From NCBI GenBank assembly GCA_022573225.1, contig JACZUI010000007.1:2183-66182 (forward strand): a DNA stretch of 64,000 nt. Direction: 5' to 3'. Numbering within the stretch: position 1 is the stretch's first letter; the number at the start of each line of letters is the position of its first letter. Below, in pieces: positions 20,240 to 44,804 of the stretch. Source of the DNA: Acidobacteriota bacterium. Lineage in GTDB: Bacteria > Actinomycetota > Acidimicrobiia > Spongiisociales > ZC4RG35. The position numbers and the translations under genes were made by a program. The notes under the pieces are model-generated. The model had not been told where the DNA came from and made no database searches. It worked only from the letters and a program-made list of their open reading frames with translations.

Positions 20240-20330
20240 GCGCTCATCTAGAGCGGTGGAGGGAACAGGCCCTTTGATACCGCGGCAACCGGCGCAAGCA
20301 CGGTGCCAATGCCTGGATCGATGAGCTGAC
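20240..20330 (+). promoter_or_regulatory. SAM-I (S-box) type riboswitch aptamer in the metH leader
   Basis: GCUCAUC UAGAG CGGUGGAGGGA ACAGGCCC UUUGAUACC GCGGCAACC ... GGUGCCAAUGCC ... GAUGAGC. P1 pairs 20242-20248 with 20320-20326. The GGUGGAGGGA kink-turn/P2, GGCAACC..GGUGCC P3 and AAU junction all match the S-box consensus. P4 looks minimal or absent, so this may be a SAM-I/IV-like variant. Confidence 0.8.
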
Positions 20331-20435
20331 CTGGGGCTTTGGCCTTTGGCGCTCCTCAAGCGTTTCGAGAGAAACTAAGGAGTTGCCCACGGTGACCAAG
20401 TCAGATCCGTGCTGTATCCAATGTCCGGAGAAACG

Positions 20436-23400
20436 ATGACGGCCTATCTGGATGCCGTTGCGTCCGGTGTCGTCATTTTCGACGGTGCCACTGGCACCAA
20501 CCTCCAAACAGTGGGCTTGACGGCCGACGATTTCGGCGGCCCGTCATTGGAAGGCTGCAACGAGCTTCTCAACGTCACCCGTCCCGACGTGGTCCGGGCC
20601 CTGCACAGGTCGTTTCTGGATGTCGGGGTGGATGTCATCGAAACGAATACGTTTGGCGCCTTCTCGGTGCCGTTGAGCGAATACGGGTTGGAGAAACGGT
20701 CATACGAGATCGCCGCCGCCGGTGCCACTCTCGCCAGGGAGACCACCGACGCGTATACGGCCGCTGATGGGCGTCCCCGTTATGTAGCCGGATCGATCGG
20801 ACCCGGGACCAAGTTCGCCACTCTCGGCCAGATCACCTATATGGACTTGGTCGATTCCTATCAGGTTGAAGCGAGAGGCCTGATCGACGGGGGCGTCGAC
20901 CTCGTGATCATCGAAACCCAGTTCGATCTTCTTGGCGCCAAGGCCGCCATCGAAGGTGCCCGCCGCGCCATGCGTGACGCCTCGGTTGATCTTCCCGTCC
21001 AGGTCCAGGTCACGATCGAACTGACCGGTCGCATGTTGCCCGGAACAGAGATTGGAGCCGCCCTCAGTACGCTCGAAGCCCTCCATCCTGATGTGATCGG
21101 GCTCAACTGCGCCACCGGGCCCGGCGAGATGTACGAGGCGATCCGTCACCTCACCCGCTACTCGAGCGTTCCGGTCTCGGCGATCCCAAACGCCGGGCTT
21201 CCCCATGTCGAGAACGGGGAGATGGTCTATGACCTCGGCGCCGATGACCTGGCCGCCCATCTCGCGTCTTTCGTCACCGAGTTTGGGGTGGGAGTCATTG
21301 GGGGTTGCTGTGGCACCGGCCCCGAGCACCTCAGCGCAGTGGTGGAAGCCGTTCGGCCTCTCGAACCGAAGGACAGAGATCCTGAGTCGATCCCGTCGGC
21401 GGCTTCGATCTACAGCCAGGTTCCGTTCGATCAGGATGCATCATTCCTGATCATCGGCGAGCGGGCCAACGCCAACGGGTCAAAAGCCTTCCAGGAGGCG
21501 CTGCTGTCGGACGACCTCGAGTCGTGCGTCGCCATCGGAAAGAGTCAGTTGCGTGAGGGGGCTCATCTGGTCGACCTCTCTGTGGACTACGTCGGGCGCG
21601 ACGGGGTGGCCGACATGGAGAGGCTTGCTGCGGCTTTCGCTACCGATGTTGCAGCCCCGGTTGTGCTCGACTCGACCGAACCTGAGGTGATGGAGGCCGG
21701 TCTCCAGCAGCTCGGGGGGCGTTGTGTCCTGAACAGCGCCAATCTGGAAGATGGCGAAGGTGAAGGCTCCCGCATCGACCGGGTACTGACGCTGGCCCGC
21801 ACCTATGGCGCAGCGGTCATCTGCCTCCTGATCGACGAGGAGGGCCAGGCCAGGACTCTCGAGTGGAAGATGAGAGTGGCCCATCGGATCCACGACCTGG
21901 CTGTTGAGAAGTACGGGCTCGAGCCTTCCGATCTCATCTTCGATGCGCTGACCTTTCCGCTGACTACCGGTGGCGAGGACCTGCGACGCGACGGGATAGC
22001 CACGCTGGAGGCGATCAAGAGGATCAAGAAAGAGCTGCCGGGGACACGGACGGTGCTCGGAGTCTCCAATGTGTCCTTCGGTCTCAATCCGGCGGCTCGA
22101 CGGGTCATCAACTCGGTGTTTCTCCATGAAGCGGTGCAGGCAGGGCTCGACGCCGCGATCGTGCATGCCGGGAAGATCGAGCCGCTGTCGAACATCGACC
22201 CGGAACAGCGCGAGACCGCCTTCGATCTGGTGTACGACCGTCGAGAAGAGGGATACGACCCGTTGGAGAAGCTGCTGCAGCTCTTCGCCGGCGTGACCAC
22301 GACCGACGAGTCAGTCGACACTTATGAGGGCCTGGTTGTTGAGGATCGGCTCCCCAAGCGGATCATTGATGGTGATCAGAAGGGCATTATCGAGGACCTG
22401 GATCAGGCCCTGGACATGGGGCATAAGCCACTGGACATCATCAACCGTTTTCTGCTCGCCGGGATGAAGGTCGTCGGCGACCTGTTTGCGACCGGTGAGA
22501 TGCAGCTTCCGTTCGTCCTCAAGTCCGCCGAAACGATGAAGAAGGCAGTTGCACATCTCGAACCTCTCATGGAGAAGGCCGAGACGAATACTCGCGGCAA
22601 GATCGTGCTGGCCACCGTGCAAGGCGACGTCCATGACATCGGGAAGAACCTGGTCGACATCATCCTCAGCAACAACGGCTACCAGGTCCACAACCTCGGG
22701 ATCAAGGTGAGTATCTCCGAGATGGTCGCTGCCTATCGGGAGATGGGGGCCGATGCCATCGGGATGAGCGGACTGCTGGTGAAGTCGACGCTGATCATGA
22801 AGGACAACCTCGAGGAGCTGGAACGCCAGGGTCTCGGTCATGTTCCTGTCTTGCTCGGAGGTGCTGCCCTGACTCGGCGGTACGTCGAGTCTGATCTTCG
22901 CTCCCGCTACGCGGGACCCCTCTATTACGGCAAGAACGCCTTTGCCGGGCTCGACGCCATGGCCCACATCGCCGCCGGCGATGCGGCTCCTCAGCCGACG
23001 GCGCCCCGGGTGCGAGCCCGCGGTGCCGGAGAATCCGAGACTGTGCCGAATCGGTCGCCCTCGGTGAAGACCGACAATCAGATCTTCAAGCCACCGTTCG
23101 TGGGCTCCCGCGTCGTGAAGGGCATCTCCCTTGACGAGATAACCCCCTTCTTCAACCTCACCGCCCTGTTTCGGAACCAGTGGCAGTATCGGCCGGAGTC
23201 CGGCGAGACCGATGCGGAGTTCAAGGAGCGACTCGCTCCTTTGTTGCGCGAGCAGATGGCGCGAGCCCGTGCCGAAGATCTTCTCCACCCTCAGGTTGTG
23301 TACGGATACTTCCCGGCCAACGGCGACGGGGACGAGCTGGTGATCTGGGAGGATGAAGATCGAGTCTCGGAGCGCGCTCGGTTCGCCTTTCCCCGCCAGC

Positions 23401-23900
23401 AGGAAGATCCGTTCTTTTGCATCGCCGACTTCTTCAGGCCGGTCGGCGAGGAGATCGACTACGCCGCGTTCCACATCGTCACCATGGGACGCCGTATCTC
23501 AGAGCGCGCAGCCGAGCTGTTCGCCGCCGACGAGTATCAGGACTACCTCCATCTTCACGGACTGGGGGTGGAGATGGCAGAGGCGCTCGCCGAGCACTGG
23601 CATCACCGGGTCAGAACCGAATGGGGTTTCGCTACCGAGGACGGGCCGTCATTGCTCGGTCTGTTCCGTCAGAAGTATCGGGGGGGCCGGTATTCGTGGG
23701 GCTATCCGGCTTGTCCCGACCTGGAGGACAACGAGAAGGTGGCCGACCTCCTGGGCGCCAAACGCATCGGGATCGAGGTCGGTGAAGCCACGTCGTATCA
23801 GTACCAGCCGGAACAGACGACATCAGCGATCATCTGTCATCACCCTCAGGCCAAGTACTTCATCGCCCGCAAACCCAAGGAGGCCCGCAATGCTGATTGA
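20436..23900 (+). CDS. metH: Cobalamin-dependent methionine synthase
   Basis: All modules are recognisable: Hcy-binding (GLNCATGP, GGCCGT), pterin-binding, the B12 cap and binding region (DVHDIGKN, the DxHxxG motif) and the AdoMet activation domain. I chose ATG 20436 because GGAG lies 5 nt upstream. Confidence 0.95.
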   Translation: MTAYLDAVASGVVIFDGATGTNLQTVGLTADDFGGPSLEGCNELLNVTRPDVVRALHRSFLDVGVDVIETNTFGAFSVPLSEYGLEKRSYEIAAAGATLARETTDAYTAADGRPRYVAGSIGPGTKFATLGQITYMDLVDSYQVEARGLIDGGVDLVIIETQFDLLGAKAAIEGARRAMRDASVDLPVQVQVTIELTGRMLPGTEIGAALSTLEALHPDVIGLNCATGPGEMYEAIRHLTRYSSVPVSAIPNAGLPHVENGEMVYDLGADDLAAHLASFVTEFGVGVIGGCCGTGPEHLSAVVEAVRPLEPKDRDPESIPSAASIYSQVPFDQDASFLIIGERANANGSKAFQEALLSDDLESCVAIGKSQLREGAHLVDLSVDYVGRDGVADMERLAAAFATDVAAPVVLDSTEPEVMEAGLQQLGGRCVLNSANLEDGEGEGSRIDRVLTLARTYGAAVICLLIDEEGQARTLEWKMRVAHRIHDLAVEKYGLEPSDLIFDALTFPLTTGGEDLRRDGIATLEAIKRIKKELPGTRTVLGVSNVSFGLNPAARRVINSVFLHEAVQAGLDAAIVHAGKIEPLSNIDPEQRETAFDLVYDRREEGYDPLEKLLQLFAGVTTTDESVDTYEGLVVEDRLPKRIIDGDQKGIIEDLDQALDMGHKPLDIINRFLLAGMKVVGDLFATGEMQLPFVLKSAETMKKAVAHLEPLMEKAETNTRGKIVLATVQGDVHDIGKNLVDIILSNNGYQVHNLGIKVSISEMVAAYREMGADAIGMSGLLVKSTLIMKDNLEELERQGLGHVPVLLGGAALTRRYVESDLRSRYAGPLYYGKNAFAGLDAMAHIAAGDAAPQPTAPRVRARGAGESETVPNRSPSVKTDNQIFKPPFVGSRVVKGISLDEITPFFNLTALFRNQWQYRPESGETDAEFKERLAPLLREQMARARAEDLLHPQVVYGYFPANGDGDELVIWEDEDRVSERARFAFPRQQEDPFFCIADFFRPVGEEIDYAAFHIVTMGRRISERAAELFAADEYQDYLHLHGLGVEMAEALAEHWHHRVRTEWGFATEDGPSLLGLFRQKYRGGRYSWGYPACPDLEDNEKVADLLGAKRIGIEVGEATSYQYQPEQTTSAIICHHPQAKYFIARKPKEARNAD

Positions 23901-24681
23901 GTCGGCCGGCTGGCTGCGAGTCGCGGAAATCAACCCGCCGGAGTTGCCCGATCTCAGCCATCTGGATTTGGCGCCGGCCTGGAGCCATGTGCTCGTCACC
24001 GACAACGTCTTCGGTCGGATCCGGGTGTCGCCCTATGCCTTCTCGGCAAGGATCACCCATGACACGCCTCACGTTCACCCAACCGTCGTGGTGTCGACGC
24101 GGGATCGGAACATCCTCGCCATCGAATCCGAGGTTCGGGGTGCGCTGGGGAATGGGGTGAACTCGTTCCTCGTGGTGATCGGTGACACGGTTCCTCACAT
24201 CGATCACATGGCCCATCACTATGAGATTGTCGAGCATCTTCGGCGTCTTCGAGACGACCTTCCCAACTTCGAGGTAGGGATGCCGACCCGTTTCCGGGAA
24301 TGGCAGTTCCGTCGTCGGATCGAGCTCGGTACCGATTTCTTCGTGACGGGCCCGGTGCTGGATCCGGACGTGATCGGCCCCGAGATGGATCGGCTCAACC
24401 TGCGCGACGACGATCCGCCGGTCTTGCTGATGGTGATTCCCCCCTTCAGTCCGACGTGGGTCGATCAGATGGAGTCCATTGGAGCGGTTCCCTCGAGTGA
24501 AAAGCTTCGAAAGCGACTGGCCGAGGTTCCCCCCGACGTGCACCGGAAGCTCGGGTGGGAGATAACAGCCGAGATGGAACAGGCTGCCCGTGACGCCGGG
24601 GCGGCCGGCGTTGTGCTTATGGGCCTCAAGTTCAGCTCGGTTGTCGATGAGGCGGCTCAGGCCTGGCCAGAACTCCAGTAG
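23890..24681 (+). CDS. Methylenetetrahydrofolate reductase (MetF-like) family protein
   Basis: VAEINPP, VLVTDNVFGRIRVS, VVVSTRDRN...FLVVIGD and FFVTGPVLD follow the MTHFR TIM-barrel pattern. The ATG overlaps the metH stop by 11 nt. Confidence 0.65.
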   Translation: MLIESAGWLRVAEINPPELPDLSHLDLAPAWSHVLVTDNVFGRIRVSPYAFSARITHDTPHVHPTVVVSTRDRNILAIESEVRGALGNGVNSFLVVIGDTVPHIDHMAHHYEIVEHLRRLRDDLPNFEVGMPTRFREWQFRRRIELGTDFFVTGPVLDPDVIGPEMDRLNLRDDDPPVLLMVIPPFSPTWVDQMESIGAVPSSEKLRKRLAEVPPDVHRKLGWEITAEMEQAARDAGAAGVVLMGLKFSSVVDEAAQAWPELQ

Positions 24682-24691
24682 CTTCCGGGGC

Positions 24692-25345
24692 GTGACTCCT
24701 TTCGATCGCCAGGTGCGGGTCCAGATCTACCGCCATGTGATCGCCAGTTCCGAGGGGCCATCTGTGGCGCAGATCGCGGCAGAACGAGGATGGGCCCCCG
24801 ACGAGGTGGCCGAGGCCTTCCACAGACTCGCATCGGAACATCGGATTGTCCTGGTCCCTGAGGAGGACCGAGTCTGGATGGCCCATCCGTTCTCCGGAGT
24901 AGAGACCGGGTACGAGGTGATAGTCGGGAATCGCTCGTGGTTTGCCAACTGTGCCTGGGATGCCCTCGGCGTCCTGGCGTTGATGGGCGACGGCAAAGCC
25001 ATCTCGGCGCACGGCGAGACCGAGTTGGTGTGGAGCGTCGCCAACGGCACGGTGAGTCCCGATGGGGTGATTCACCTCCCAGTCCCGGCTCGAGAGTTCT
25101 GGGACGACATCGGCTTCACCTGAGGGAACATTCACGGGTTCCGGTCGGAATCCGAGCTTTCCTCCTGGCTGAGGGAGCACAACCAGGCGATTGGGTACAT
25201 TGCCCCGGTGCAGCAGATCTTCGAAATGTCGGTCGACTGGTACGCAGCGCGGCTGGATGAGGACTGGAGACCGCCTTCCCCCCAAGAGGCCTCCTCCTTG
25301 TTTGCCAGCCACGGGCTCGTCGGAGATTTCTGGGCGCTGGGCTAG
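24692..25345 (+). CDS. MerB-like (organomercurial lyase family) protein, 217 codons with an in-frame TGA (25121-25123) read as candidate selenocysteine
   Basis: The N-terminal HTH-like region and NCAWDALGVLALMG correspond to the MerB Cys96/Asp99 motif. The TGA aligns with the MerB FCC(159/160)HVHFF position. The frame stays open for 73 further GC3-rich codons (GNIHGFRSESELSSWLREH...) to TAG 25345. A SECIS-like hairpin follows. If TGA is a true stop, the CDS is 24692-25123. Confidence 0.55.
25135..25154 (+). promoter_or_regulatory. SECIS-like stem-loop downstream of the MerB-like TGA
   Basis: CGGGUUCC-GGUC-GGAAUCCG: an 8-bp stem with one G-U pair and a GGUC tetraloop at +23..+26 from the U of UGA. 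It resembles the E. coli fdhF SECIS apical loop. Confidence 0.5.
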
Positions 25346-42708: not shown

Positions 42709-42881
42709 TCAGCTAACGCCCGAGGAACTCGATCCGACGCAGGGATGAGCAAGACTGCCCATCAGACAAAGGCAAAACTCAGCCGCACATTGCGTCGGTT
42801 ACTTAGCTCAACAGTGACGGTGGCAAGCCATCCTCGGTGACCGGCCTCTGCCTAGGTTCCTGCCGTTTCCGGCAGTGATGC

Positions 42882-43244
42882 TCAAATACTGACTACCCGG
42901 TCTGCTGCGACCGTGTAGTTGGCGAAGTCGACCGGGGTGATGAACGTGGCGTTCTTGCCTTCTAGATCCTGCTCGGAGACCCCACGGGCCTTTCCGCAGC
43001 CACCTCAGACGTAGACCGGAACACCATGTTCGATGATCTTCGGCCACAACTCTTTCAGTGGCGGCCAGCCGACACCGTCGATCTGATCGGACACGGAGTC
43101 CTTCATCAGATACGTGGCCTCCCCAAGAAGCACCAACTCTGGCTCATGACCAGCGTCAATGGCACCAATGGCTCCAACAAACGGGATAGTCGCCCGTGTC
43201 GGATCATCCGACCCATAAGTGCTGGTGTAGAGAATCGTCGCCAT
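42882..43244 (-). CDS. DsrE-family small protein, 120 codons with an in-frame TGA (43007-43005) read as candidate selenocysteine in a U-G-G-C motif
   Basis: GGAGG lies 6 nt upstream of ATG 43244. The translation MATILYTSTYGSDDP...HGVPVYV-TGA-GGCGKARGVSEQDLEGKNATFITPVDFANYTVAADRVVSI has DsrE-like size and pattern. The TGA falls where the family has the Cys of a CxxC-like site. Forty GC3-rich codons follow it, and a hairpin lies downstream. Confidence 0.55.
42974..42996 (-). promoter_or_regulatory. SECIS-like stem-loop downstream of the DsrE-like TGA
   Basis: Minus strand CGGA-AA-GGCC(C)-GUG-(G)GGUC-UCCG: a bipartite stem with an AA bulge. The apical loop carries G and U at +23/+24 from the U of UGA. 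Confidence 0.45.
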
Positions 43245-43469
43245 TATTCCTCCAATCTCCCCCGACAGCGTCCGTGCCAAGGGGTCGTCCGGGGACGCTG
43301 CCAAGGATCGCCACAGCCAAACCTACACCCCACGTCAAGTTGATGTGGGCTAGAAATCGTCCAGGCGAGCACGAATCGATCACAGGGCCCAAACGTTGCA
43401 ATGGCCCCCTGTGATCTTCCCCGGTTTTCCGGACGGTTTGATGTTCGTCTGCGTGAGAGTCTCGATCAA

Positions 43470-44804
43470 TCACGCCCAGCTGATGTGAGCGAGGGTGGAG
43501 GTGGTGCAGTAGAAAAGGCCGCCTTCGCCGTCCGGTGATAGGAACATGCCGTTGGCGATACGGGACCCGGTTTCAGCTCGATCGATCAGGAGCCCGCTTG
43601 CGATGTCGACGACAACTACGTCGTCAGTCCGGTCTTTCGTGAAGTCGTTGATGGCAAGCTCACCGGATTCGGGGTATACCACCGGCTGCATTGACGGCCG
43701 AATGTCCAGTTGCCAGCTGACTTCGAGTCCATCGCCGCTCGTGTCGATCCCCGCCAGACCACCATTGATCGAGTCCCAGGCGATCGCCATCCCATACTCG
43801 GGGACGTGGACCGGGGGAGCGATGATCCCTCCTCCGGGGGTTCCGAAGGGCTCGATTGTCTGGACGTTGCGTTCATCGGTGAGGTCGAATCGGATAAGTC
43901 TCTGTGCGCCCGTCCAAGGTGCTGGAAGCCTCCAAGACAGGTCGCTGCCAGGAGGAGACCGGAACCGACCGTTGGGTTCCAGCTGATGGATGCGTCGGAC
44001 TGACTCGATATCTCCACAATCCATCATCCAACCAGCGCCGTCTGTGAGGCATATGTCCCAGCCCAGACCCCATCGGTCGTCCGGTTCGCGATAGCGCGGC
44101 TGCCAGTCGTCGACCACCAGCCCATCGGGTTCAACCACCAGGCGCCAAATATGCTCTGTGCCTGGTACATAAATGTACTCCGCCCCCATGTCGTCGATGT
44201 CAGCAGCGATCCGTCCCATCGACCCTTCTGGGAGTACCAACGGTTCGTGGACGAGCTCGAGGGTGTCGGGATCGACGCGAGTGATCGTGGTGCCGCCTTG
44301 GCCTTCGAGGCGAAGGTCCTTTGTGATCAGTGTCCCGTCACCCAACGCAAGGAGCCCGTTGTGACTCCGGTCAACTGGAAGCTCGCGCTCGACGAGTATC
44401 GACAGGTCATCGGGATCTAGGCGGTGCAAGTAGGAGCCGTTGACGGACATGATGGATCCGTTGGCGTGAGCAAGGATTGCTCCGCACCAAACATGGTCGC
44501 CACATTGCAGTTCTCCGGAGCTGGCCAGCGGTTCTAGAGAATCGGGGTCGATTCGCTCCACCCATCCGAAAGGAGGAGGGCCGCTGAAGGCAGCCATCGT
44601 GCCGCCCAAATACCACTCTTCGGAGTCACGTCGAATGACCATGACATTCCAACGGTCATTTCGCCGAGTAGTGGTTCTGGCCGTGCCGCCGGCTGCGTCA
44701 AGCCGACCGGGTGCAGCCTTCTGACGCCTGTTGCCGCCGCACTCGACCGGCCAGGACGACGACCAATAGCCACCGTGCGGTTCGGTTCTGTCGAGAAGCG
44801 TCAT
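43470..44804 (-). CDS. Hypothetical protein, probably beta-propeller-like. Start uncertain (ATG 44804 or 44642).
   Basis: Long GC3-rich ORF with repeated beta-strand-rich segments. I recognise no family signature. The first roughly 54 codons are Arg-rich and look non-protein-like. Confidence 0.55.
   Translation of the reverse strand: MTLLDRTEPHGGYWSSSWPVECGGNRRQKAAPGRLDAAGGTARTTTRRNDRWNVMVIRRDSEEWYLGGTMAAFSGPPPFGWVERIDPDSLEPLASSGELQCGDHVWCGAILAHANGSIMSVNGSYLHRLDPDDLSILVERELPVDRSHNGLLALGDGTLITKDLRLEGQGGTTITRVDPDTLELVHEPLVLPEGSMGRIAADIDDMGAEYIYVPGTEHIWRLVVEPDGLVVDDWQPRYREPDDRWGLGWDICLTDGAGWMMDCGDIESVRRIHQLEPNGRFRSPPGSDLSWRLPAPWTGAQRLIRFDLTDERNVQTIEPFGTPGGGIIAPPVHVPEYGMAIAWDSINGGLAGIDTSGDGLEVSWQLDIRPSMQPVVYPESGELAINDFTKDRTDDVVVVDIASGLLIDRAETGSRIANGMFLSPDGEGGLFYCTTSTLAHISWA

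What the first reader, a model, noticed from the sequence alone, without database searches (positions are those of the whole stretch)
42882..43244. Second in-frame TGA: DsrE-family protein with a U-G-G-C redox-type motif and its own SECIS-like hairpin
On the minus strand, ATG 43244 (GGAGG 6 nt upstream) opens a frame that reads ...IIEHGVPVYV. It then hits TGA (43007-43005) and continues in frame with GGCGKARGVSEQDLEGKNATFITPVDFANYTVAADRVVSI to TGA 42884-42882. That is 120 codons, the normal DsrE-like size, with GC-rich third positions after the TGA.
The TGA creates a U-x-x-C motif (UGGC) where DsrE-like proteins, as far as I recall, have a conserved Cys after the VYVC-type strand. Sec/Cys pairs in CxxC-like motifs are the most common selenoprotein architecture, and a DsrE-like selenoprotein family has been reported from comparative genomics (from memory).
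Downstream, 42996-42974 forms a bipartite stem (CGGA/UCCG, AA bulge, GGCC/GGUC) with an apical GUG loop. This places G and U at +23/+24 from the UGA.
Basis: partly seen in the sequence, partly recalled or inferred. Interest (0 to 1): 0.75.

Follow-up and report, generated by a model that had tools for sequence, protein, structure and literature searches.

The report
DsrE-like selenoprotein gene with SECIS
This is a real 120-codon gene for a small DsrE-family protein whose in-frame TGA almost certainly encodes selenocysteine; it belongs to a selenoprotein family described since 2004-2008, although public databases still cut it short at 79 residues.

Summary
On the minus strand, ATG 43244 opens a frame that meets TGA at 43007-43005 and runs 40 more codons to TGA 42884-42882.

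The Pfam DsrE model (PF02635) spans the TGA. In 51 genes from many phyla, TGA sits in exactly this column. In 48 of them the frame stops exactly 41 codons later, with normal coding periodicity. Fifteen other relatives have Cys in that column.

A hairpin lies 18-30 nt after the U of UGA (GGCCC-GUG-GGGUC). It pairs in 91% of cells, covaries, and fixes the synonymous codons GCC-CGT-GGG in 41 of 45 Sec genes against 0 of 12 Cys genes. This is a bacterial SECIS.

Sec80 aligns with the active-site Cys of DsrE-family proteins (TusD Cys78) and caps a helix. Cys83 lies one turn on, giving a U-x-x-C motif.

The "DsrE-like, UxxC" selenoprotein family is already catalogued, so this is a new member of a known kind.

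Not shown:
- The Sec machinery is absent from the 64 kb window, so it could not be checked.
- The biochemical function is unknown.

One side result stands out. In 13 of 51 relatives, but not in the window, the gene sits next to an ArsM-like arsenite methyltransferase gene, in at least 10 of them a selenoprotein gene.

The parts
43249..43253 (-). Shine-Dalgarno-like GGAGG, 4 nt upstream of the ATG
   Evidence: Read directly from the sequence.
42882..43244 (-). Complete DsrE-like selenoprotein coding sequence: 120 sense codons including Sec80, plus the terminal TGA
   Evidence: Translation. PF02635 matches residues 5-119. The N-terminus (MATILY) and C-terminus (DRVVSI-stop) coincide with those of homologues in 48 of 51 Sec loci.
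43005..43007 (-). In-frame TGA, read as selenocysteine (residue 80)
   Evidence: TGA occupies this column in 51 genes and Cys in 15 relatives. The column aligns to Cys in 3MC3, YchN and TusD.
42996..42998 (-). TGC codon for Cys83, the resolving partner in the U-G-G-C motif
   Evidence: Cys83 is present in at least 90% of the 28 aligned family members.
42971..43000 (-). SECIS hairpin. The core is 42974-42996: lower stem CGGA/UCCG, an AA bulge, upper stem GGCCC/GGGUC. The apical loop GUG is at 42983-42985. A further GCU/AGC extension reaches 42971-43000.
   Evidence: Folds. The upper stem pairs in 46-51 of 51 Sec genes and covaries. The loop is GUG in 47 of 51 Sec genes. Synonymous sites are fixed only in the Sec forms.
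42882..42884 (-). True stop codon (TGA)
   Evidence: In 48 of 51 Sec genes the stop falls exactly 41 codons after the UGA.

Best explanation
The gene at 43244-42882 (minus strand) encodes a 120-residue cytoplasmic protein of the DsrE/DsrF fold. Codon 80 (UGA) is recoded to selenocysteine.

**Recoding step (inferred from the established bacterial mechanism).** The hairpin lies immediately 3' of the UGA, with its G-containing GUG loop at nt 23-25. It would recruit SelB-GTP-Sec-tRNA(Sec) to the ribosome, so that Sec is inserted instead of termination.

**Protein level.**
- Sec80 ends a beta-strand and caps the following helix. Cys83 sits one turn later, giving U-G-G-C.
- This is the position of the reactive Cys of characterised DsrE-family proteins (TusD and DsrE Cys78).
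- I infer that Sec80 is the nucleophile. It would accept a sulfur, selenium or metalloid adduct, or a disulfide.
- I infer that Cys83 then resolves it through a selenenylsulfide. This would make the protein a small redox or chalcogen-transfer protein.

**Shown here:** the frame, its family, the Sec/Cys column, the conserved SECIS, and the structural position of the residue.

**Inferred only:** actual Sec insertion, the selenenylsulfide chemistry, and the substrate.
For: **Frame and family**
- The frame and its TGA are as described.
- PF02635 matches across the TGA, E = 2.8e-13.
- Of the 120 best database relatives, 116 are called truncated at this same point, nearly all at exactly 79 aa.

**Conservation across genomes**
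- tblastn matches cover residues 1-120 in loci from Acidimicrobiia, Chloroflexota, Acidobacteriota, Alphaproteobacteria, Poribacteria, Rokubacteria and Gemmatimonadota.
- There are 51 TGA genes and 15 Cys genes in the column. Sister taxa differ: Bryobacteraceae L077 has Cys, while L079 and L080 have TGA.
- In 48 of 51 Sec genes the stop is exactly 41 codons after the UGA, with zero in-frame stops.
- Identity by codon position is 0.60/0.62/0.37 downstream and 0.58/0.70/0.38 upstream.

**SECIS**
- 91.2% of cells are paired, against 81.7 +/- 1.2 in shuffles (0 of 500 reach it).
- The covariation score is 0.225 against 0.063 (0 of 500). All slid registers reach at most 67.6%.
- A-R-G is encoded GCC-CGT-GGG in 41 of 45 Sec genes and 0 of 12 Cys genes, Fisher p = 2.6e-9. 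The window's own codon usage would give this combination a frequency of about 0.016.
- Third-position identity in the hairpin zone is 0.57, against 0.37 elsewhere.

**Genome context**
- TGA is also the commonest ordinary stop in the window (33 of 57 genes), so the code is not reassigned.
- The same 79-aa call occurs on at least 23 metagenome contigs. Three of the four contigs fetched matched the window over this gene, two exactly and one with a single substitution; the fourth was not matched by the script. This argues against a sequencing error.
- A second TGA-interrupted gene (MerB-like) in the window has a hairpin with the same UGA-to-loop spacing.

**Structure**
- The Sec column aligns to Cys in 3MC3, YchN and TusD.
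- In an AlphaFold model of the Cys homologue P0090 (pLDDT 86), that Cys lies at the strand-helix junction.
- Foldseek top hits are all DsrE-family structures.

**Literature**
- The DsrE-like UxxC selenoprotein family is catalogued.
Against: - No tRNA-Sec, selA, selB or selD is present in the 64 kb window or in the held fragments of relatives. Sec competence of this genome is therefore unproven.
- The window's hairpin alone is statistically weak.
- The Fisher and shuffle statistics are not corrected for phylogeny.
- The match to TusD is weak (E = 0.04), although the motif alignment is clean.
- There is no conserved operon partner in the window, so the substrate is a guess.
- No experimental data exist.
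Confidence: 0.9

Rival explanations
1. The TGA is a genuine stop. The gene makes a 79-residue truncated DsrE-like fragment or is a pseudogene, and the downstream 40 codons are untranslated.
For: Gene callers annotate it this way everywhere. TGA is the commonest stop codon in the window. No Sec machinery is seen in the window.
Against: - The downstream 40 codons are stop-free in all 48 Sec genes compared (3 of the 51 lacked complete downstream sequence or a stop at +41) and end at the same position in all 48.
- They show the same codon-position periodicity as the upstream part.
- The Pfam model and the fold need the C-terminal part.
- Cys homologues are colinear with the Sec forms.
Confidence: 0.03
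2. The UGA is read through, but with a standard amino acid rather than selenocysteine. This could be Trp, Cys or Gly supplied by a near-cognate or suppressor tRNA, or by a local code change.
For: Some database entries translate the codon as W (P0001 and P0002). Sec machinery has not been demonstrated for this genome.
Against: - The homologous column is Cys, the signature of Sec/Cys exchange, and never Trp or Gly encoded by a sense codon. One database relative, P0003, is called with Tyr there, and its DNA was not read.
- A structured element with a SECIS-like position and a G-containing loop is conserved only in the TGA forms.
- TGA ends 33 of 57 ordinary genes in the window.
Confidence: 0.05
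3. The hairpin is a by-product of the conserved peptide K-A-R-G-V in a GC-rich genome, not a functional RNA element.
For: The stem overlaps highly conserved residues (A86, R87 and V89 are at least 90% conserved). Its stability in the window is only in the top 3.4% of synonymous recodings.
Against: - Cys-form genes encode the same A-R-G with varied codons and lose pairs 20-28 and 21-27, which form in only 3-4 of 14 genes.
- Pairs 17-31 and 18-30 covary with changes on both sides in 14 and 12 sequences.
- CGT (12% of Arg codons) and GGG (26% of Gly codons) are not preferred codons in this window.
Confidence: 0.02

Closest known systems
DsrE-like selenoprotein family (PF02635, UxxC motif). Sources: Desulfovibrio vulgaris representative WP_014524487.1; Sargasso Sea, PMC1088965; 'DsrE 2' in the GOS study, PMC2398784; 2026 review, PMC13188914.
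   Same: - Same Pfam family.
- Same U-x-x-C motif.
- Same kind of SECIS, immediately after the UGA with a G in a small apical loop.
- Sec forms are at least as common as Cys forms, as in GOS (19 Sec against 15 Cys).
- Function is unknown there too.
   Different: Orthology with the D. vulgaris representative was not tested. The relatives found here are mostly from Acidimicrobiia, Chloroflexota and Acidobacteriota MAGs, not Deltaproteobacteria. No NCBIfam model recognises this subfamily, and NCBI, JGI and ENA records still truncate it at 79 aa.
TusD and DsrE, the sulfur-relay subunits of TusBCD and DsrEFH (PDB 2D1P, 2HY5)
   Same: Same fold. Sec80 aligns with the persulfide-carrying Cys78 at the strand-helix junction; the role of Cys78 is from established knowledge of the Tus and Dsr systems.
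   Different: - There are no DsrF/DsrH or TusC/TusB partner genes nearby.
- TusD has a single reactive Cys (ICVAA), not a C/U-x-x-C pair.
- Sequence similarity is marginal (E = 0.04).
YchN (E. coli, 1JX7) and the Sulfolobus solfataricus DsrE/DsrF-like protein 3MC3. JGI labels several of the database relatives 'predicted peroxiredoxin'.
   Same: These are the closest solved structures: 3MC3 has E = 6e-6 by profile and TM 0.78 by fold, and YchN shares the C-x-x-C (LCKTCTDGRG). Both are stand-alone small proteins of unknown function.
   Different: They carry Cys, not Sec. They lack the invariant GSDDPTRA loop of this subfamily.
SaoD (CD2369-family DsrE-like protein of the SAO system; Haft and Gwadz, bioRxiv 10.1101/2022.07.06.499078)
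   Same: A DsrE-like protein with an invariant CxxC, found in genomes rich in selenoproteins and next to a MerB-like selenoprotein.
   Different: SaoD is never a selenoprotein and belongs to a nine-gene locus in anaerobes. No such locus is present here.

Membership tests
Bacterial selenoprotein gene (UGA recoded by SECIS and SelB) | In-frame UGA followed by a conserved coding sequence in the same frame | tested here: met
   In 48 of 51 genes the stop is exactly 41 codons later. Codon periodicity is 0.60/0.62/0.37.
Bacterial selenoprotein gene (UGA recoded by SECIS and SelB) | Sec/Cys pair: at least two homologues with Cys in the UGA column (criterion of PMC1088965) | tested here: met
   15 Cys-form genes, including L048, L050, L054, L077 and L029.
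Bacterial selenoprotein gene (UGA recoded by SECIS and SelB) | Stem-loop immediately downstream of the UGA with a small apical loop containing G | tested here: met
   The loop is GUG at nt 23-25 in 47 of 51 genes. The stem covaries and is absent from Cys forms.
Bacterial selenoprotein gene (UGA recoded by SECIS and SelB) | The genome encodes selA, selB, selC (tRNA-Sec) and selD | not testable with these tools
   None is in the 64 kb window or in the held fragments of relatives. The rest of the genome is not available.
Bacterial selenoprotein gene (UGA recoded by SECIS and SelB) | Selenium actually incorporated at the UGA | not testable with these tools
   Needs 75Se labelling or mass spectrometry.
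DsrE/DsrF-like family (PF02635) | Pfam model scores above the gathering threshold over the whole domain | tested here: met
   50.5 bits against 22.7, model positions 4-115 of 116.
DsrE/DsrF-like family (PF02635) | DsrE fold with a reactive Cys at the strand-helix junction | tested here: met
   This was tested on the Cys homologue P0090, not on the window protein itself. The model has pLDDT 86, with the Cys at the end of strand 102-106 before helix 107-112. Foldseek top hits are 3MC3, 1JX7, 3PNX, 2QS7 and 2HY5_A. The profile alignment places the column on Cys in 3MC3, YchN and TusD.
DsrE-like selenoprotein family of the literature (UxxC) | PF02635 domain with Sec in a U-x-x-C motif | tested here: met
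DsrE-like selenoprotein family of the literature (UxxC) | Orthology with the published representatives (WP_014524487.1, AACY01486889) | not tested
   Those sequences could not be retrieved with the tools. No Desulfovibrio locus was among the 80 best loci.
DsrEFH / TusBCD sulfur-relay complex | Adjacent genes for the paralogous F/C and H/B subunits | tested here: not met
   The window's neighbours are luciferase-like monooxygenases, a GATase, an aldehyde dehydrogenase, a Rieske oxygenase and hypothetical proteins. No DsrE-family neighbour cluster appears across the loci.

The most novel reading that the evidence does not exclude
The UxxC DsrE-like selenoprotein may be a dedicated partner of the selenoprotein form of arsenite methyltransferase (ArsM), or more broadly of selenium-based metalloid and organometal detoxification. 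It could act as a selenol reductant that recycles ArsM, or as an As(III)/methyl-As(III) carrier.

In 13 of 51 Sec-form loci the adjacent, co-oriented gene is ArsM-like. In at least 10 of these, ArsM has Sec in its conserved W-T-G-C-I-A-G Cys column. None of the 15 Cys-form loci has this neighbour.

Other recurrent neighbours are ArsR-rhodanese regulators, MBL-fold hydrolases and MFS transporters. The window itself lacks the ArsM neighbour, but it carries a MerB-like gene with its own in-frame TGA 18 kb away. My two searches returned no title or abstract mentioning a DsrE-like/ArsM linkage; the GOS and 2022 review papers list both families separately.
Probability: 0.2. Interest if true: 0.55.

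Novelty: new member of a known kind. Interest (0 to 1): 0.3.

Why it matters
**For annotation.** This gene and hundreds of relatives are truncated to 79 residues in NCBI, JGI and ENA records. The truncation removes the catalytic U-x-x-C motif and one third of the fold. No NCBIfam model catches the subfamily. The very uniform SECIS, GCC-CGT-GGG-GTC overlapping the peptide A-R-G-V, would make an easy rule for correcting these records.

**For biology.** The gene marks this Acidimicrobiia-like organism as a probable selenium user. It adds to the evidence that Sec forms dominate this DsrE subfamily in many soil, groundwater and marine MAG lineages. The recurrent pairing with a selenoprotein ArsM gives a testable lead for a family whose function has been unknown for 20 years.

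Tried and rejected
- **Hairpin significance from the window alone.** It was not significant against dinucleotide shuffles (z = -0.77) and only moderate against synonymous recodings (3.4%). I relied on comparative data instead.
- **Rfam.** No family hit at the site; the only window hit is a SAM riboswitch.
- **NCBIfam.** No specific model. Only spurious weak zinc-finger-like hits caused by the CxxC.
- **Sec machinery.**
  - ARAGORN on the window and on 60 loci found no tRNA-Sec.
  - Pfam scans of 30 window ORFs found no SelA, SelB or SelD.
- **Structure prediction of the window protein itself.** I modelled the Cys homologue P0090 instead.
- **Synteny.** The window shares only the gene itself with its closest relative L001 (83.5% nt identity over 461 nt). 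There is no conserved operon partner in the window. The methyltransferase at 25.3-26.2 kb is not ArsM-like and has no Sec.
- **Promoter and terminator scan.** Nothing was found around the gene.
- **A single continuous 10-bp stem register for all genes.** Rejected: below pair 17-31 the register differs between lineages, with a 5' AA bulge in the window, a 3' A bulge in Acidobacteriota, and no bulge in L014 and L040.

Full report
**1. Observation**

On the minus strand, ATG 43244-43242 opens a frame. It is preceded by GGAGG at 43253-43249, 4 nt upstream. The frame reads 79 codons to TGA 43007-43005 and continues in frame for 40 codons to TGA 42884-42882. None of the 40 downstream codons is ATG, GTG or TTG, so that segment cannot be initiated separately.

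- The lower stem is CGGA/UCCG.
- An AA bulge follows.
- The upper stem is GGCCC/GGGUC, which is 5 bp including one G-U pair.
- The apical loop is GUG at nt 23-25.

RNAfold recovers this structure. On its own it is unremarkable. Against dinucleotide shuffles z = -0.77. Against 5000 synonymous recodings of the same peptide drawn from the window's codon usage, it scores -11.3 against -6.9 +/- 2.2 kcal/mol, and 3.4% of recodings fold as well.

**2. What the protein is**

With the TGA read as a residue, Pfam's DsrE/DsrF model PF02635 matches residues 5-119, which are model positions 4-115 of 116. The score is E = 2.8e-13, 50.5 bits against a cut-off of 22.7. The domain therefore spans the TGA. NCBIfam has no specific model for it.

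A profile of 28 family members finds DsrE-family structures in the PDB:
- 3MC3, E = 6e-6
- YchN (1JX7), E = 2.6e-4
- TusD (2D1P), E = 0.04

In each alignment the TGA column falls on a Cys. In TusD the alignment is ...VALNIC-VAAALRRGV. The Cys is chain residue 90 of a 140-residue construct, which corresponds to native Cys78. From established knowledge of the Tus and Dsr relays, this is the persulfide-carrying residue.

The window protein itself could not be submitted for structure prediction. I modelled the genuine Cys homologue P0090 instead, with mean pLDDT 86 and the core above 95. In the model the equivalent Cys106 ends strand 102-106 and caps helix 107-112, and the second Cys sits in the first helical turn. 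Foldseek against the PDB returns only DsrE-family folds at the top: 3MC3 (TM 0.78), 1JX7, 3PNX, 2QS7, 2HY5_A, 2FB6 and 1L1S.

**3. Comparative evidence for recoding**

*Database calls.* A search of 5.8 billion proteins gave 284 relatives. Of the best 120, 116 are called truncated at this point, nearly all at exactly 79 aa; a few have a shifted or extended N-terminus. The four full-length calls show W (P0001, P0002), Y (P0003) or a true Cys (P0090, IYACGACCRARS) at that column. The W calls are presumably TGA translated under another genetic code.

*Reading the DNA.* I read the DNA of 80 genomic loci from GTDB species representatives. The results were as follows:
- 51 genes, counting the window's own, have TGA in exactly this column.
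- They come from Acidimicrobiia, other Actinomycetota, Chloroflexota, Acidobacteriota, Alphaproteobacteria, Poribacteria, Rokubacteria/Methylomirabilota, Gemmatimonadota and Fimbriimonadales.
- 15 genes have TGC or TGT there. These are Chitinophagaceae, some Acidobacteriota, a Dehalococcoidia and a Thermoplasmatota.
- Sister lineages differ: Bryobacteraceae L077 has Cys, while L079 and L080 have TGA. This is the usual pattern of Sec/Cys exchange.

*Coding signal downstream.*
- In 48 of 51 TGA genes the next stop is exactly 41 codons later.
- The reading frame has zero stops, against 1.8 and 0.8 per 38 codons in the other two frames.
- Pairwise identity by codon position is 0.60/0.62/0.37 downstream and 0.58/0.70/0.38 upstream. 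The downstream part is therefore under the same purifying selection as the upstream part.

*Not a code change or an error.* TGA also terminates 33 of 57 ordinary genes in the window, so the genetic code is standard. The identical 79-aa call occurs on at least 23 contigs from different metagenomes, all syntenic with the window. Three of the four contigs fetched matched the window over this gene, two exactly and one with a single substitution; the fourth was not matched by the script. A sequencing error is therefore excluded.

**4. The RNA element**

Across the 51 TGA genes the upper stem pairs in nearly every sequence:

| Pair (nt from U of UGA) | Paired |
|---|---|
| 18-30 | 49/51 |
| 19-29 | 51/51 |
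| 20-28 | 50/51 |
| 21-27 | 51/51 |
| 22-26 | 46/51 |

The loop is GUG in 47 of 51 genes.

The formal count on alignment A3 gave these results:
- 91.2% of cells are paired, against 81.7 +/- 1.2 in shuffles (0 of 500 reach it).
- The covariation score is 0.225 against 0.063 (0 of 500).
- 26 cells have changes on both sides, against 7.8 expected.
- All slid registers reach at most 67.6%.
- Pair 18-30 occurs as GC 36, CG 7, AU 3, UA 1, GU 1 and UG 1.
- Pair 17-31 occurs as AU 13, UA 8, GU 5, CG 4 and GC 2.

Below these pairs the stem continues, but its register differs by lineage. The window has a 5' AA bulge, Acidobacteriota have a 3' A bulge, and L014, L040 and L055 have no bulge.

The decisive control is the set of Cys-form genes:
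- They encode the same A-R-G with varied codons, such as GCG CGC GGT, GCA CGC GGC and GCC CGA GGC.
- Sec genes use GCC CGT GGG in 41 of 45 cases, against 0 of 12 for Cys genes (Fisher p = 2.6e-9, not corrected for phylogeny).
- Pairs 20-28 and 21-27 form in only 3-4 of 14 Cys genes.
- From the window's own codon usage, that codon triple would be expected at a frequency of about 0.016.
- Third-position identity rises to 0.57 in the hairpin zone, against 0.37 elsewhere.

**5. Context**

No tRNA, selA, selB or selD is present in the window or in the held fragments of relatives. This is uninformative for the genome as a whole.

The neighbours in the window are unrelated metabolic genes:
- luciferase-like monooxygenases
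- a GATase
- an aldehyde dehydrogenase
- a Rieske oxygenase
- a 390-444-aa hypothetical protein upstream

Synteny with the closest relative L001 (Acidimicrobiia MAG, 92% aa identity) is limited to the gene itself.

A second TGA-interrupted frame lies at 24.6-25.3 kb. It is MerB-like, and PF03243 spans its TGA at 25121 (...GFT-U-GNIHGF). It is followed by an 8-bp hairpin whose GGUC loop sits at nt 23-26 from the U, the same spacing as in the DsrE-like gene. Two independent candidates with matching SECIS geometry support Sec decoding in this genome.

**6. Functional lead from relatives**

In 13 of 51 Sec-form loci, and in 0 of 15 Cys-form loci, the adjacent gene is ArsM-like. It is co-oriented and lies 130-1300 nt away. 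It matches NF008823 at E = 7e-65, though its 219 bits fall below that model's curated cut-off of 263. In at least 10 of these loci ArsM itself carries TGA in ...DLWTG-U-IAGAL, the catalogued UxxG ArsM selenoprotein motif.

Other recurrent neighbours are an ArsR-rhodanese regulator, an MBL-fold hydrolase related to GloB and sulfur dioxygenases, and an MFS transporter. The window lacks all of these neighbours. I therefore treat the link to metalloid or sulfur detoxification as a hypothesis, not a finding for this locus.

**7. Mechanism**

*Shown:* a DsrE-fold protein with a conserved UGA, a conserved SECIS, and the recoded residue at the family's reactive-Cys position with a second Cys three residues on.

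*Inferred:*
- SelB-dependent insertion of Sec at residue 80.
- Sec80 acts as the nucleophile, and Cys83 resolves the adduct through a selenenylsulfide.
- The protein works as a redox or sulfur/selenium/metalloid-transfer protein.

The subfamily also has an invariant GSDDPTRA loop (residues 11-18), and H33, E42, R87 and D93 are at least 90% conserved. I have not explained what these residues do.

**8. Comparison with what is known, and novelty**

"DsrE-like protein, PF02635, UxxC" has been a listed prokaryotic selenoprotein family for about two decades:
- the comparative-genomics work the 2022 and 2026 reviews cite for this family, with a Desulfovibrio vulgaris member listed by 2006 (PMC1794560)
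- the Sargasso Sea study, with 2 sequences and a figured SECIS
- the GOS study, where "DsrE 2" has 19 Sec and 15 Cys sequences
- the 2022 and 2026 reviews

Its function remains uncharacterised. The finding is therefore correct, and it is a new member of a known kind. Orthology with the published representative was not tested.

It is not a DsrEFH/TusBCD complex, because no partner subunit genes are present. It is not SaoD, which is never a selenoprotein and sits in a different locus.

**9. Verdict**

| Measure | Value |
|---|---|
| Observation | confirmed |
| Confidence that this is a selenocysteine-encoding DsrE-like gene with a functional SECIS | about 0.9 |
| Confidence in any specific biochemical role | low |
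| Interest | about 0.3 |

The interest is modest. Its practical value is correcting a widespread mis-annotation. Its most interesting by-product is the ArsM(Sec) association.

Noticed in passing
window 24590-25345 (+), TGA at 25121-25123; hairpin at about 25135-25154: A MerB-like (alkylmercury lyase, PF03243) frame is interrupted by an in-frame TGA at ...DDIGFT-U-GNIHGF, the position of the MerB FCCHVHFF active-site Cys. The Pfam model spans the TGA. An 8-bp hairpin, CGGGUUCC-GGUC-GGAAUCCG, follows, with its loop at nt 23-26 from the U. It has T-U rather than the C-U of the published SaoL family and only weak NCBIfam scores, so it may be a different MerB-like selenoprotein subfamily.
   Followed up: partly
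L001:6072-6857, L004, L012, L015, L017, L024, L040, L042, L046 (Sec forms); L075 (Cys form): ArsM-like arsenite methyltransferase genes lie directly beside the DsrE-like Sec gene, on the same strand, in 13 of 51 species. In at least 10 of them ArsM has its own in-frame TGA at W-T-G/A-U-I-A/G-G. None of the 15 Cys-form DsrE-like loci has this neighbour. L040 and L042 carry a second, more divergent methyltransferase with TGA at ...ALA-A/G-U-LAG.
   Followed up: partly
L063, L069, L071-L074, L079, L080 (Sec forms); L048, L050, L054, L056, L062 and others (Cys forms): Acidobacteriota and Bacteroidota members carry an N-terminal extension of 26-35 residues that looks like a signal peptide. Several have an RR motif (for example MFRRQLLSRLPLFGLGLL...), suggesting exported, possibly Tat-dependent, versions that include Sec forms. 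The window's protein has no such extension.
   Followed up: no
L077 versus L079/L080; L060, L061, L066: These look like recent Sec-to-Cys conversions. L077 (Bryobacteraceae, TGC) keeps the whole hairpin, but its loop is GCG. L060 and L061 (C-E-P-S-G-R-A-L-G) have lost the second Cys yet keep a vestigial stem. L066 (the same C-E-P-S motif) has also lost the second Cys; its stem was not examined.
   Followed up: no
window 42860-42875 (-): A perfect 6-bp hairpin with a GAAA tetraloop (CUGCCG-GAAA-CGGCAG) starts 6 nt after the true stop codon of the DsrE-like gene. No U-run follows, and the terminator scan does not call it.
   Followed up: no
window 20241-20327 (+) and 20409-23900 (+): A SAM (S-box) riboswitch (Rfam RF00162, 70.6 bits) lies upstream of a B12-dependent methionine synthase (metH) gene.
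   Followed up: no
window 43470-44804 (-) (called as 390 aa in L081-L084): A large ORF immediately upstream of the DsrE-like gene, on the same strand with a 225-nt gap. It has no Pfam or NCBIfam match. It is conserved in the syntenic metagenome contigs but not next to the DsrE-like gene in other species.
   Followed up: partly
P0003 (ENA, 120 aa, from a 541-nt contig): One database relative is called full length with Tyr in the Sec/Cys column (PIYV-Y-GGCAKARG). I did not read its DNA, so I cannot say whether it is a real Tyr variant or an artefact.
   Followed up: no
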